NCBI RefSeq assembly: GCF_058153355.1
Contig: NZ_CM177019.1
Reading direction: 5' to 3' (one strand)
DNA length: 64,000 bases
Below, one piece after another: positions 48,653 to 52,035 of this stretch (position 1 is its first letter; each line of letters begins with the position of its first letter). Made by a program: the position numbers and the translations under genes. Below the pieces are notes generated by a model. It was given only the letters and a program-made list of their open reading frames with translations, made no database searches and was not told the origin of the DNA.

Positions 48653-49603
48653 ATGAGTATAAAAGAGCAAACGTTAATGACGCCTTACCTACAGTTTGAC
48701 CGCAACCAGTGGGCAGCTCTGCGTGATTCCGTACCTATGACGTTATCGGAAGATGAGATCGCCCGTCTCAAAGGTATTAATGAAGATCTCTCGTTAGAAG
48801 AAGTGGCCGAGATCTATTTACCTCTGTCACGTTTGCTGAACTTCTATATAAGCTCGAATCTGCGCCGTCAGGCAGTTCTGGAACAGTTTCTTGGTACCAA
48901 CGGGCAACGCATTCCTTACATTATCAGTATCGCAGGTAGCGTCGCGGTGGGGAAAAGTACAACCGCCCGTGTATTGCAGGCACTATTAAGCCGTTGGCCG
49001 GAGCATCGTCGTGTTGAGCTGATCACTACAGATGGCTTCCTTCACCCTAATCAGGTGCTGAAAGAACGTGGTCTGATGAAGAAGAAAGGCTTCCCGGAAT
49101 CGTATGATATGCATCGCCTGGTGAAGTTTGTTTCCGATCTCAAATCCGGCGTGCCAAACGTTACGGCACCTGTTTACTCGCATCTTATTTATGATGTGAT
49201 CCCGGATGGAGACAAAACTGTTGTTCAGCCTGATATTTTAATTCTTGAAGGGTTAAATGTCTTACAGAGCGGGATGGATTATCCTCACGATCCACATCAT
49301 GTATTTGTTTCTGATTTTGTCGATTTTTCGATATATGTTGATGCACCAGAAGACTTACTTCAAACGTGGTATATCAACCGTTTCCTGAAATTCCGTGAAG
49401 GGGCTTTTACAGACCCGGATTCCTATTTTCATAACTACGCGAAATTAACTAAAGAAGAAGCGATTAACACTGCCATGACATTGTGGAAAGAGATCAACTG
49501 GCTGAACTTAAAGCAAAATATTCTACCTACTCGTGAGCGCGCCAGTTTAATCCTGACAAAGAGTGCTAATCACGCGGTAGAAGAGGTCAGACTACGCAAA
49601 TAA
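48653..49603 (+). CDS. coaA: pantothenate kinase CoaA (316 aa)
   Basis: ORF 48311..49603; known N-terminus [20 protein letters not shown] starts at 48653; P-loop GSVAVGKST. Confidence 0.95.
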
Positions 49604-49612
49604 TTTAAAGGG

Positions 49613-49624
49613 GAGCTAATGCTC
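49613..49624. repeat. IS4 target-site duplication, left copy (gagctaatgctc)
   Basis: 12-bp exact direct repeat flanking both IS4 ends. Confidence 0.9.
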
Positions 49625-51050
49625 TAATGCCGATCAGTTAAGGATCAGTTGACCGATCCAGTGGCTGTGTAAGAATCCGGAAACGCTCACTTGTTTCCGG
49701 ATTTTTTTATGCACATTGGACAGGCTCTTGATCTGGTATCCCGTTACGATTCTCTGCGTAACCCACTGACTTCTCTGGGGGATTACCTCGACCCCGAACT
49801 CATCTCTCGTTGCCTTGCCGAATCAGGTACTGTAACGCTACGCAAGCGCCGTCTTCCCCTCGAAATGATGGTCTGGTGTATTGTTGGCATGGCGCTTGAG
49901 CGTAAAGAACCTCTTCACCAGATTGTGAATCGCCTGGACATCATGCTGCCGGGCAATCGCCCCTTCGTTGCCCCCAGTGCCGTTATTCAGGCCCGCCAGC
50001 GCCTGGGAAGTGAGGCTGTCCGCCGCGTGTTCACGAAAACAGCGCAGCTCTGGCATAACGCCACGCCGCATCCGCACTGGTGCGGCCTGACCCTGCTGGC
50101 CATCGATGGTGTGTTCTGGCGCACACCGGATACACCAGAGAACGATGCAGCCTTCCCCCGCCAGACACATGCCGGGAACCCGGCGCTCTACCCGCAGGTC
50201 AAAATGGTCTGCCAGATGGAACTGACCAGCCATCTGCTGACGGCTGCAGCCTTCGGCACGATGAAGAACAGCGAAAATGAGCTTGCTGAGCAACTTATAG
50301 AACAAACCGGCGATAACACTCTGACGTTAATGGATAAAGGTTATTACTCACTGGGACTGTTAAATGCCTGGAGCCTGGCGGGAGAACACCGCCACTGGAT
50401 GATACCTCTCAGAAAGGGAGCGCAATATGAAGAGATCAGAAAACTGGGTAAAGGCGATCATCTGGTGAAGCTGAAAACCAGCCCGCAGGCACGAAAAAAG
50501 TGGCCGGGACTGGGAAATGAAGTGACAGCCCGCCTGCTGACCGTGACGCGCAAAGGAAAAGTCTGCCATCTGCTGACGTCGATGACGGACGCCATGCGCT
50601 TCCCCGGAGGAGAAATGGCGGATCTGTACAGTCATCGCTGGGAAATCGAACTGGGATACAGGGAGATAAAACAGACGATGCAACTGAGCAGGCTGACGCT
50701 GAGAAGTAAAAAGCCGGAGCTTGTGGAGCAAGAGCTGTGGGGTGTCTTACTGGCTTATAATCTGGTGAGATATCAGATGATTAAAATGGCGGAACATCTG
50801 AAAGGTTACTGGCCGAATCAACTGAGTTTCTCAGAATCATGCGGAATGGTGATGAGAATGCTGATGACATTGCAGGGCGCTTCACCGGGACGTATACCGG
50901 AGCTGATGCGCGATCTTGCAAGTATGGGACAACTTGTGAAATTACCGACAAGAAGGGAAAGGGCCTTCCCGAGAGTGGTAAAGGAGAGGCCCTGGAAATA
51001 CCCCACAGCCCCGAAAAAGAGCCAGTCAGTTGCTTAACTGACTGGCATTA
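49625..51050 (+). mobile_element. insertion sequence IS4 (1426 bp), complete
   Basis: Imperfect terminal inverted repeats (left taatgccgatcagttaag / right reverse complement taatgccagtcagttaag), single transposase ORF, 12-bp flanking direct repeat; length equals canonical IS4. Confidence 0.93.
49709..51037 (+). CDS. insG: IS4 transposase (442 aa)
   Basis: ORF 49691..51037; product from ATG 49709 [24 protein letters not shown]... recognised as IS4 transposase. Confidence 0.93.
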
Positions 51051-51062
51051 GAGCTAATGCTC
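51051..51062. repeat. IS4 target-site duplication, right copy (gagctaatgctc)
   Basis: 12-bp exact direct repeat flanking both IS4 ends. Confidence 0.9.
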
Positions 51063-51069
51063 CCCTTTC

Positions 51070-52035
51070 TTATTTTTCTGCACTACGCAGGGATATTTCA
51101 CCGCCCATCCAGGGTTTTATTATTCCATCCTGCTCAAGCAATAAAGCGCCTTGTTTGTCTATTCCGCGTGAAATGCCAAATATTTCTTTATCACCAATGA
51201 TAAGTTTCACTGGGCGATTAATAAAATTATCCAGTTTTTCCCAGCGCGACAGATAAGGTGCCAATCCTTCTTGCTCGAAGAGTTCCAGCGCCGCACGTAA
51301 TTCACGTATTAGCATGGCCGCCAACGCATTACGATCGAGATTGATCCCAGCTTCCTGAAGCGTGATCCACCCCTGATTAACGATATTCTCTTCAACACGA
51401 CGCATTGCCATGTTGATCCCGGCACCAATGACTATTTGCGCCGCATCGCCGGTTTTGCCAGTCAGCTCCACAAGAATACCTGCCAGCTTGCGATCCTGCA
51501 GATAGAGGTCATTCGGCCATTTAACACGAACTTTATCAGCGCCCAACTTGCGTAATACTTCCGCCATCACGATACCGATAACCAGACTTAAACCAATCGC
51601 CGCAGCCGGGCCTTGTTCCAGACGCCAGAACATCGACAAATATAAGTTTGCGCCAAAAGGTGAAAACCATTTCCGACCTCGGCGACCACGTCCTGCCTGC
51701 TGGTATTCAGCAACGCAGGCATCACCCGATTTAAGCTCTCCGATACGATCAAGAAGATACTGATTCGTGGAGTCAATAACGGGCAGCACGGCTACACTAC
51801 CGCTATCCAGCTGACTCAATATCTGTTCAGCATTAAGTAACTGGATGGGCTCAGGCAGGCTGTATCCTTTACCCGGAACGGTAAAGACATCAACGCCCCA
51901 GTCACGCAGTGTTTGAATATGTTTATTAATGGCCGCCCGGCTCATTCCTAACGTTTCACCCAGCTGCTCACCAGAGTGAAATTCGCCATTCGCTAATAGC
52001 GTGATTAATTTTAGCGGAACGGTATTATCCTTCAT
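51070..52035 (-). CDS. birA: biotin-protein ligase / biotin operon repressor BirA (321 aa)
   Basis: ORF 51070..52035 minus; N-terminal HTH and GRGRRGR motif. Confidence 0.95.

What the first reader, a model, noticed from the sequence alone, without database searches (positions are those of the whole stretch)
49675..49708. Terminator-like hairpin plus T-run immediately upstream of the IS4 transposase start
atccggaaac-gctcactt-gtttccggat (a 10-bp perfect stem) is followed by ttttttt and then the transposase ATG at 49709, about 50 bp inside the left end. It looks like a built-in terminator/occluding structure that would block outside read-through (here from coaA) and could mask the transposase ribosome-binding site.
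Basis: inference. Interest (0 to 1): 0.25.

Follow-up and report, generated by a model that had tools for sequence, protein, structure and literature searches.

The report
IS4 left-end terminator split by its promoter
The hairpin plus T-run just before the IS4 transposase gene is real and conserved, and looks like a terminator and ribosome-site mask that only transcripts entering from outside can form, because the element's own mRNA starts inside it; this is a tidy but unsurprising example of how jumping genes shield themselves from neighbouring genes.

Summary
A perfect 10-bp stem (49675-84 / 49693-702, 8-nt loop) is followed by a T-run (49702-08) and the ATG at 49709, 51-84 nt inside a canonical 1426-bp IS4 (49625-51050).

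- **Conservation:** 66 of 70 distinct left ends of IS4-group relatives keep the same layout. There are 31 different, mutually compensating stem sequences (covariation 0.418 against 0.153 in shuffles).
- **Promoter:** A conserved sigma-70 promoter (-35 TTGACC, 16-nt spacer, -10 AAGAAT) overlaps the base of the 5' arm.
- **Start site:** Published dRNA-seq of Shigella flexneri maps the primary transposase start site to the equivalent of window 49684, the last base of the 5' arm. The element's own mRNA therefore cannot form the hairpin. Only read-through RNA, here from coaA, can.
- **Context:** IS4 landed in, and split, the shared coaA/birA terminator. Its right end carries a twin inward-facing terminator, and E. 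coli K-12 Term-seq shows a 3' end there.

Termination and ribosome-site masking at the left hairpin itself are inferred, not shown. The closest precedents are the IS200 left-end terminator and IS10/IS50 fold-back inhibition. I rate it a new variant of a known kind, of modest interest.

The parts
49625..51050 (+). IS4 element, 1426 bp
   Evidence: It is 99.8% identical to the K-12 insG copy and is annotated 'IS4-like element IS4 family transposase'. Terminal inverted repeats and a 12-bp duplication flank it.
49613..49624 (.). Left copy of the target-site duplication GAGCTAATGCTC
   Evidence: family D2. The right copy is at 51051-51062.
51051..51062 (.). Right copy of the target-site duplication
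   Evidence: family D2.
49625..49642 (+). Left terminal inverted repeat (IRL), TAATGCCGATCAGTTAAG
   Evidence: The same 17-18 nt are shared by relatives in many genera.
49649..49654 (+). -35 hexamer TTGACC, flanked by GATC sites at 49643-46 and 49655-58
   Evidence: Promoter scan. Searches show it in relatives, but this hexamer was a selection criterion for the 70-end set, so its presence there is by construction.
49668..49676 (+). Extended -10, TGt-AAGAAT (hexamer 49671-49676). Its last two bases are the first two bases of the 10-bp stem.
   Evidence: In 63 of 66 relatives there are exactly 22 nt from the end of the -35 to the first C of the stem, meaning a 16-nt variable spacer plus a hexamer of form xAxAAT. 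The tool finds the same promoter in L001 and L065.
49684..49684 (+). Transposase transcription start site, the last base of the 5' arm
   Evidence: dRNA-seq of S. flexneri M90T lists a primary TSS at 126348(-) on pWR100, assigned to the IS4 transposase gene. It lies 25 nt before the ATG. Its 100-nt upstream string ends with a sequence identical to window 49625-49683 (PMC7132871 Table S3).
49675..49702 (+). Hairpin: 5' arm 49675-84, loop 49685-92, 3' arm 49693-702. It can extend to 49671-49706.
   Evidence: (I4). Covariation across relatives is shown.
49702..49708 (+). T-run (U-tract), seven T
   Evidence: A tail of form ATTTTTT(T) follows the stem in nearly all relatives.
49699..49701 (+). SD-like GGA inside the 3' arm, 7 nt before the ATG
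   Evidence: Read from the sequence. GGAT is kept even where the neighbouring stem bases change. Its role as a Shine-Dalgarno element is inferred.
49709..51037 (+). Transposase ORF (InsG, 442 aa) including the stop codon
   Evidence: Pfam Nterm_IS4 plus DDE_Tnp_1 and NCBIfam transpos_IS4_1.
49657..49720 (+). IS4-specific lower extension of the stem. In read-through RNA, 49657-49669 pairs with 49708-49720 and covers the AUG.
   Evidence: It is strong only in IS4 and its 96% relative and is not conserved in the family.
51021..51046 (-). Right-end inward-facing hairpin, formed by the inner part of IRR and its inverted copy
   Evidence: One search lists a minus-strand terminator-like site. One search gives the fold. 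Relatives have equivalent hairpins.
51012..51020 (-). T-rich tail of the right-end terminator (TCTTTTTCG on the minus strand)
   Evidence: K-12 Term-seq shows a 3' end at MG1655 4502126/7(+), antisense to insG, in all three conditions. The printed context is ...TAATGCCAGTCAGTTAAGCAACTGACTGGCTCTTTTTC (PMC7815308 supplementary file 1).
51033..51050 (-). Right terminal inverted repeat (IRR)
49607..49616 (+). 5' half (AAAGGGGAGC) of the host coaA/birA bidirectional terminator that the insertion split
   Evidence: The reconstructed empty site folds at -19.2 kcal/mol, z -6.1. It is uninterrupted in 5420 of 5426 complete E. coli genomes.
51059..51077 (+). 3' half (GCTCCCCTTT) plus the T-rich tail CTTATTTTT of the split host terminator

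Best explanation
The hairpin and T-run form an intrinsic terminator and ribosome-site mask that is 'split' by the transposase promoter. The promoter's -10 hexamer overlaps the base of the 5' arm, and transcription starts at the last base of that arm (49684).

The element's own mRNA therefore carries only the loop, the 3' arm, the U-run and the AUG. It stays unstructured and can be translated.

Any transcript that enters from outside the left end carries both arms. In this window that means coaA read-through, because IS4 destroyed coaA's own terminator. Such a transcript folds the stem next to the U-run, and most RNA polymerases should terminate at about 49706-49711, before or at the AUG. Transcripts that escape still have the GGA and U-rich initiation region locked in a stable stem, and in IS4 itself the AUG is paired as well.

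A twin inward-facing terminator at the right end does the same for transcripts entering there, here from birA.

- **Shown:** the structure, its covariation, the promoter geometry, the start site and the right-end 3' end.
- **Inferred:** termination and translational masking at the left hairpin.
For: 1. The hairpin and T-run are present and far more stable than shuffles.
2. 66 of 70 unique left ends were chosen only by the terminal repeat plus a GATCNNTTGA motif. They share -35, a 16-nt spacer, a -10 overlapping the stem base, an 8-14 bp stem, T6-8, and a start codon 7-8 nt after the last stem G. The four exceptions are copies interrupted by other DNA.
3. There are 31 distinct core stems. 83% of cells pair against 67% in shuffles. 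The covariation score is 0.418 against 0.153 (0 of 500 shuffles reach it) and 0.05-0.12 when the partner is slid. Nine of 12 pairs show changes on both sides.
4. dRNA-seq in S. flexneri gives a primary TSS 25 nt before the ATG, equivalent to window 49684, with identical upstream sequence. This matches the position predicted beforehand from the promoter.
5. The predicted cost of opening -12..+13 around the start codon is 17.2 kcal/mol in read-through RNA and 3.8 in RNA starting 7 nt after the -10, over 46 relatives. The IS4 native leader is no more structured than shuffles (z +1.3), whereas read-through RNA is (z -4.8).
6. More distant relatives (Ralstonia L004, Methylophaga L030, Paraburkholderia L107) place a hairpin plus T-run at the left end, separate from a strong GGAGG ribosome site. 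This argues that termination itself is selected.
7. The right-end hairpin plus T-run is conserved in more than 20 relatives and coincides with a Term-seq 3' end in K-12.
8. The insertion split the coaA/birA terminator. Other copies sit in the typA, eno/ygcG and bamD/raiA terminators, so strong read-through into the ends is the normal situation for this element.
Against: - No 3' end at the left hairpin is reported in the one Term-seq set I could query. The K-12 copy has no annotated gene reading into its left end in the 300 nt of flank I viewed, so that test is uninformative.
- The start site comes from one plasmid copy in one noisy data set with many TSS calls. In the part of the chromosomal table that is held, no sense TSS was listed for IS4 copies.
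- The two base pairs next to the U-run are A-U and U-A, which is less ideal than a GC-closed terminator stem.
- The SD-like element is only GGA.
- The tool's simple terminator scan missed the site.
- The same data set shows antisense 5' ends inside the hairpin, which this model does not explain.
Confidence: 0.72

Rival explanations
1. Self-attenuator. The transposase mRNA starts upstream of the hairpin, so the structure terminates or masks the element's own transcripts to keep transposase levels low.
For: The hairpin sits in what would be the 5' leader if transcription began near the terminal repeat. Low transposase expression is the rule for insertion sequences (background in PMC4513863).
Against: The only promoter-like site on the + strand has its -10 overlapping the stem base, and its geometry is conserved. 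The mapped primary TSS is the last base of the 5' arm, so the native RNA cannot form the stem.
Confidence: 0.05
2. Translational mask only. The stem sequesters the initiation region of read-through RNA in the way IS10 and IS50 do, and the T-run is conserved as a U-rich translation enhancer or spacer rather than as a terminator tail.
For: The T-run lies directly between the GGA and the AUG, so its conservation could reflect translation. No left-end 3' end has been observed.
Against: A stem followed at once by 6-8 U is the defining intrinsic-terminator signal. Relatives with a separate strong GGAGG site still keep a hairpin plus T-run at the left end. The analogous right-end structure gives a 3' end in vivo.
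Confidence: 0.12
3. DNA-level element. The inverted repeat is a cruciform or a binding site for transposase or a host factor near the left end.
For: It is subterminal, close to the transposase-binding terminal repeat, and next to conserved GATC sites.
Against: The inner stem sequence is free to change as long as pairing is kept (31 versions). That is the signature of a folded single strand, not of sequence-specific protein recognition. The fixed relation to the T-run and the start codon points to RNA.
Confidence: 0.04
4. Terminator or processing site for an antisense or outward RNA. The hairpin also works on the minus strand, ending or shaping an antisense transcript complementary to the transposase 5' end, in the manner of IS10 RNA-OUT or IS200 art200.
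For: The minus-strand fold is equally stable (-16 kcal/mol). S. flexneri dRNA-seq lists antisense 5' ends inside the hairpin and terminal repeat of several copies, and an antisense primary TSS inside the gene.
Against: The minus-strand tail is weak (UUCUUAC in IS4). No sigma-70-like promoter was found on the minus strand inside the first 200 nt of the gene. The antisense ends are labelled secondary or novel in a noisy table. At most this would be an additional role.
Confidence: 0.1

Closest known systems
IS200 left-end rho-independent terminator
   Same: A hairpin terminator a few tens of nt inside the left end protects the transposase gene from impinging transcription. The native start site lies at or beyond the terminator. 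In IS200 the terminator is nt 12-34 and the TSS is at about nt 40 (PMC4513863).
   Different: In IS200 the terminator lies entirely upstream of the start site, and a second, separate stem-loop masks the SD. In IS4 one hairpin does both jobs and the start site is inside it, at the last base of the 5' arm. IS200 belongs to an unrelated family with a Y1 HUH transposase.
IS10 and IS50 'fold-back inhibition' (protection from outside activation)
   Same: Both elements belong to the same IS4 family. An inverted repeat has its 3' arm in the translation initiation region and its 5' arm upstream of the native start site, so only read-through transcripts fold and are silenced. This comes from my knowledge of Davis, Simons and Kleckner 1985 and Krebs and Reznikoff 1986. 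The idea is restated in bioRxiv 10.1101/2025.01.24.634351.
   Different: IS10 and IS50 use a purely translational block with no U-tract. IS4 adds a canonical terminator tail. The SD-like element in IS4 is weak (GGA), and the AUG is paired only in IS4's own lower-stem extension.
Ordinary intrinsic (rho-independent) terminators, for example the coaA/birA terminator that IS4 split
   Same: A stem-loop of 8-14 bp followed directly by a U-tract, with comparable stability: -14.6 to -18.8 kcal/mol here against -19.2 for the host terminator.
   Different: It lies upstream of a gene rather than downstream. A promoter is embedded in its 5' arm. A-U pairs close the stem next to the U-run.

Membership tests
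Intrinsic (rho-independent) terminator | Stable stem-loop (about 5-14 bp, loop 3-8 nt) | tested here: met
   A 10-bp perfect stem with an 8-nt loop, -14.6 kcal/mol, z -5.1.
Intrinsic (rho-independent) terminator | U-tract immediately 3' of the stem | tested here: met
   Seven T at 49702-49708. The tail is kept as ATTTTTT(T) in nearly all relatives.
Intrinsic (rho-independent) terminator | RNA 3' ends generated in the U-tract in vivo or in vitro | not testable with these tools
   No left-end 3' end appears in K-12 Term-seq, but no gene was seen reading into that copy's left end. The twin right-end terminator does show a 3' end.
Intrinsic (rho-independent) terminator | Pairing rather than sequence is what is conserved | tested here: met
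   31 distinct stems. Covariation 0.418 against 0.153 in shuffles, and 0.05-0.12 in slid controls.
IS10/IS50-type fold-back protection from outside transcription | The 5' arm lies upstream of the native start site, so native mRNA lacks it | tested here: met
   The primary TSS corresponds to window 49684, the last base of the 5' arm. The conserved promoter geometry agrees.
IS10/IS50-type fold-back protection from outside transcription | The 3' arm contains the ribosome-binding site and/or the start codon | tested here: inconclusive
   Only a weak SD-like GGA (49699-701) lies in the 3' arm. The AUG is paired only in the IS4-specific extension. The predicted opening energy is 17.2 against 3.8 kcal/mol.
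IS10/IS50-type fold-back protection from outside transcription | Read-through transcripts are shown to be untranslated | not testable with these tools
   This needs reporter fusions.
IS200-type left-end terminator | Bidirectional terminator located between the left end and the transposase start site | tested here: not met
   The start site lies inside the hairpin, not beyond it. The minus-strand tail UUCUUAC is weak. It works like the IS200 terminator but is not the same arrangement.
IS4 (ISfinder IS4, IS4 subgroup of the IS4 family) | About 1426 bp, 18-bp imperfect terminal repeats beginning (T)AATG, 11-13 bp target duplication | tested here: met
   1426 bp, IRL and IRR found, 12-bp duplication. 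99.8% identical to the K-12 IS4. Subgroup features are as in PMC2266710 Table 1.
IS4 (ISfinder IS4, IS4 subgroup of the IS4 family) | Single-ORF DDE transposase with an IS4 N-terminal domain | tested here: met
   PF13006 (3e-33), PF01609 (9e-32) and NF033592 (9e-91).

The most novel reading that the evidence does not exclude
IS4-group elements may be specialised 'terminator-swapping' insertion sequences. They preferentially insert into the top of bidirectional intrinsic terminator hairpins (A-run, GC stem, loop, T-run), which they destroy. They carry inward-facing replacement terminators at both ends. The left one is built around the transposase promoter, so only self-initiated transcripts escape. 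This would both insulate the transposase from strong neighbours such as eno, typA and coaA, and restore termination for the flanking host genes, making the insertion nearly cost-free.
Probability: 0.5. Interest if true: 0.55.

Novelty: new variant of a known kind. Interest (0 to 1): 0.38.

Why it matters
The finding explains how a classical but little-studied insertion sequence keeps its transposase silent even when it lands directly behind highly expressed genes. It also gives a compact design rule: a terminator whose 5' arm contains the promoter is invisible to its own transcript.

There are practical consequences as well.

- RefSeq's common TTG start for the IS4 transposase lies inside a non-coding hairpin and is probably wrong.
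- IS4 insertions between convergent genes should be largely non-polar for the neighbours, because each end supplies a terminator.
- The apparent preference for terminator hairpins would make insertion sites predictable.

Tried and rejected
- **Rfam.** A scan of 49400-51300 at E-values up to 10 gave only two chance hits to eukaryotic or archaeal families.
- **Lower-stem extension as a family feature.** I tested whether the extension that pairs the AUG with 49657-69 is conserved. Cognate spacer/ORF duplex energies are no better than non-cognate ones (-5.7 against -5.35 kcal/mol, p = 0.34), so it is specific to IS4.
- **Tool terminator scan.** It did not list the site. This reflects how the tool counts the maximal stem, because it does list the homologous hairpins in L065 and L012, and my own scan finds the site.
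- **Start-site data.** Thomason 2015 and Mahillon and Chandler 1998 are not held. The Cappable-seq table was truncated when stored. Kim 2012 and the ROSE supplements have no entry. Searching by locus tag in the Shigella paper failed, but searching by sequence string succeeded.
- **K-12 Term-seq.** There is no 3' end at the left end. This is uninformative, because no annotated gene was seen reading into that end.
- **Literature.** I found no prior description of an IS4 left-end terminator. The 1981 IS4 sequence paper (Klaer et al.) could not be read, so prior mention there cannot be excluded.
- **Same insertion elsewhere.** None of 5426 complete E. coli genomes has IS4 at the coaA/birA site, so the source strain was not identified.

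Full report
**Observation.** ATCCGGAAAC (49675-84) pairs perfectly with GTTTCCGGAT (49693-702) across an 8-nt loop. Seven T follow (49702-08, the first being the last stem base), and then ATG at 49709. The stem can extend to 14-15 pairs (49671-49706). The core folds at -14.6 kcal/mol (z -5.1) and the extended form at -18.8 (z -5.8). In the whole 64-kb window only six distinct perfect stems of at least 10 bp with a T-rich tail exist on both strands, against none in shuffles, and two of them are the two ends of this element. The tool's simple terminator scan missed the site. It evidently counts the maximal stem, which consumes the T-run, because it reports the homologous hairpins in relatives.

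**The element.** It is a canonical IS4. It spans 1426 bp (49625-51050), has 18-bp imperfect terminal repeats, and is flanked by a 12-bp duplication GAGCTAATGCTC. It is 99.8% identical to the K-12 insG copy. Its 442-aa ORF carries Nterm_IS4 and DDE_Tnp_1 and matches NCBIfam transpos_IS4_1. The hairpin occupies IS nucleotides 51-78 and the ATG is nucleotide 85.

**Comparative evidence.** I collected left ends in three ways: tblastn on plasmids, an exact-pattern scan of one-genome-per-species contigs with the terminal repeat, and a metagenome scan requiring only the repeat plus GATCNNTTGA. Of 70 unique left ends, 66 share one architecture:
- a -35 TTGACx;
- a 16-nt spacer of free sequence;
- a -10 of form xAxAAT whose last two bases begin the stem, so 63 of 66 have exactly 22 nt from the -35 to the first C of the stem;
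- an 8-14 bp stem and a 3-12 nt loop;
- a tail ATTTTTT(T);
- a start codon (ATG, GTG or TTG) 7-8 nt after the last stem G.

The four exceptions are copies interrupted by other DNA. There are 31 distinct core stems, for example CCGGAAAC/GTTTCCGG in IS4, CCGATGAC/GTCATCGG in Serratia and Shewanella, CCGTAATC/GATTACGG, CCAGTACTAAC/GTTAGTACTGG and GGCTTCTGAA/TTCAGGAGCC. On a MAFFT alignment of 43 representatives, 83% of cells pair against 67% in shuffles. The covariation score is 0.418 against 0.153 (0 of 500 shuffles reach it) and 0.05-0.12 when partners are slid. Nine of 12 pairs change on both sides. The pairing is therefore under selection while the sequence is not, which points to a folded single strand.

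**Promoter and start site.** The promoter scan finds one + strand site: TTGACC (49649-54), 16 nt, TGt-AAGAAT (49668-76). The tool finds the same promoter in relatives. From this I predicted a start at about 49683, inside the 5' arm. Published dRNA-seq of Shigella flexneri M90T lists a primary TSS at 126348(-) on pWR100, assigned to the IS4 transposase gene (CDS complement 125022..126323). Its 100-nt upstream string ends in a sequence identical to window 49625-49683 (PMC7132871 Table S3). This places the start at the equivalent of window 49684, which is the last base of the 5' arm, 8 nt after the -10 and 25 nt before the ATG. At that table's call density, roughly one call per 600 nt per strand (my estimate), an agreement within one base by chance is about 0.5%. 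The native mRNA thus begins C-GCUCACUU-GUUUCCGGAUUUUUUUAUG and cannot form the stem. Its leader is no more structured than shuffles (z +1.3), whereas RNA reading in from coaA is strongly structured (-54.3 kcal/mol, z -4.8). Across 46 relatives, the predicted cost of opening -12..+13 is 17.2 kcal/mol in read-through RNA and 3.8 in RNA starting 7 nt after the -10.

**Genomic context.** Joining the two flanks with one copy of the duplication rebuilds AAAGGGGAGC-TAAT-GCTCCCCTTT followed by CTTATTTTT. This is a strong bidirectional terminator (-19.2 kcal/mol, z -6.1) between the convergent coaA and birA genes. It is uninterrupted in 5420 of 5426 complete E. coli genomes, and none of those genomes has IS4 here. 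The insertion split the stem, so coaA transcripts must now run into the IS4 left end and birA transcripts into the right end.

**The right end.** The right end carries its own inward-facing hairpin, GCCAGTCAGTT-AAGC-AACTGACTGGC followed by TCTTTTT on the minus strand (51046-51012). Equivalent structures are found in more than 20 distinct relatives. In E. coli K-12, Term-seq detects a 3' end antisense to insG in all three conditions, in the printed context ...TAATGCCAGTCAGTTAAGCAACTGACTGGCTCTTTTTC (PMC7815308 supplementary file 1). The twin element therefore coincides with a transcript 3' end in vivo, as expected of a working terminator.

**Mechanism.** The best-supported reading is a terminator and ribosome-site mask split by its own promoter.
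- Foreign transcripts contain both arms, fold, and should terminate in the U-run just before the AUG.
- Transcripts that escape have the GGA and U-rich initiation region buried, and in IS4 itself the AUG as well, through an extension pairing 49657-69 with 49708-20.
- Self-initiated transcripts lack the 5' arm and remain open.

More distant relatives (Ralstonia, Methylophaga, Paraburkholderia) make the left-end hairpin from the terminal repeat itself. They keep the T-run but have a separate GGAGG site downstream, which argues that termination as such is selected. Termination and masking at the left hairpin remain inferred. K-12 Term-seq shows nothing there, but no gene was seen reading into that end.

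**Rivals.**
- A self-attenuator is contradicted by the start site.
- A purely translational mask remains possible but fits the canonical U-tract and the GGAGG-type relatives poorly.
- A protein-binding DNA site fits the free inner-stem sequence poorly.
- An extra role on the antisense strand cannot be excluded. The Shigella table lists antisense 5' ends inside the hairpin and terminal repeat of several copies, which I cannot explain.

**Comparison with what is known.** IS200 has a left-end rho-independent terminator at nt 12-34 that protects against impinging transcription, a TSS at about nt 40, and a separate SD-sequestering stem (PMC4513863). IS10 and IS50, members of the same family, silence read-through RNA by fold-back pairing of the initiation region (my knowledge; restated). 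IS4 merges both ideas in one hairpin with the start site inside it. I found no description of this in the searchable literature. The 2008 survey of the family never uses the word terminator. The 1981 IS4 sequence paper could not be read.

**Side result.** Rebuilt empty sites of IS4 copies and relatives are very often canonical bidirectional terminators, with the duplication equal to the upper stem plus loop. Examples are coaA/birA, bamD/raiA, typA, eno/ygcG, a Klebsiella plasmid site and five metagenomic sites, all with z below -5. Others are weaker palindromes with A- and T-rich flanks, and the K-12 site is not a hairpin. This fits the 'spectacular' conservation of target arms noted for the subgroup (PMC2266710). 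It would also explain why both ends need inward-facing terminators.

**Verdict.** The finding is a new variant of a known protective strategy. Interest is modest, at 0.38.

Noticed in passing
window 51012-51046 (minus strand): The IS4 right end carries a twin inward-facing hairpin plus T-run, made from the terminal repeat and its inverted copy and overlapping the last transposase codons. K-12 Term-seq shows a 3' end there in three conditions, and more than 20 relatives have the same design.
   Followed up: yes
window 49607-49624 and 51051-51077; loci L125, L249, L253, L002, L163, L164, L174, L193, L234: IS4 and its relatives are very often inserted into the top of canonical bidirectional intrinsic terminators (A-run, GC stem, loop, T-run), with the target duplication equal to the upper stem plus loop. 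Here the coaA/birA terminator was split. Other copies sit in the typA, eno/ygcG and bamD/raiA terminators.
   Followed up: partly
window 49632-35, 49643-46, 49655-58: Three GATC (Dam) sites lie in the first 35 bp, two of them flanking the -35 hexamer. The GATC directly after the -35 was not required by my search pattern, yet 62 of 66 relatives keep it. This suggests methylation-dependent promoter control, as in IS10 and IS50.
   Followed up: partly
window 49691 versus 49709: RefSeq PGAP usually starts the IS4 transposase at a TTG (448 aa) that lies inside the covarying non-coding hairpin. The family alignment and the 25-nt leader support ATG 49709 (442 aa), and some records already use it (L253).
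   Followed up: partly
S. flexneri M90T: chromosome 34001, 34005, 34076, 34085 (+); pWR100 6036, 5987 (-). Equivalent to the window minus strand at about 49684-49600.: The dRNA-seq tables list antisense or outward-directed 5' ends inside the left hairpin, in the terminal repeat and just outside the element, plus an antisense primary TSS inside the gene (equivalent to about window 50365, minus strand). These could be outward promoters, processing sites or artefacts.
   Followed up: no
loci L016-L025, L050-L063, L067-L096 (Pseudomonas spp.); L015; L103: Many Pseudomonas genomes hold short (about 150-200 bp) non-coding elements bounded by IS4-type terminal repeats, resembling MITEs. One (L015) contains a terminator-like hairpin. 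L103 (Rosenbergiella) has a left and a right repeat fused into a 34-bp palindrome.
   Followed up: no
window 49657-49669 with 49708-49720: IS4 itself, and its 96% Klebsiella relative, have a lower-stem extension that pairs the spacer of the promoter with the AUG and first codons (-16.4 kcal/mol). It is not conserved in the wider family.
   Followed up: yes
locus L144 (right end): One metagenomic relative (1463 bp) has the inner part of its right terminal hairpin (CTGACTGTCAGTTAAG) repeated in tandem, giving a much longer right-end stem.
   Followed up: no
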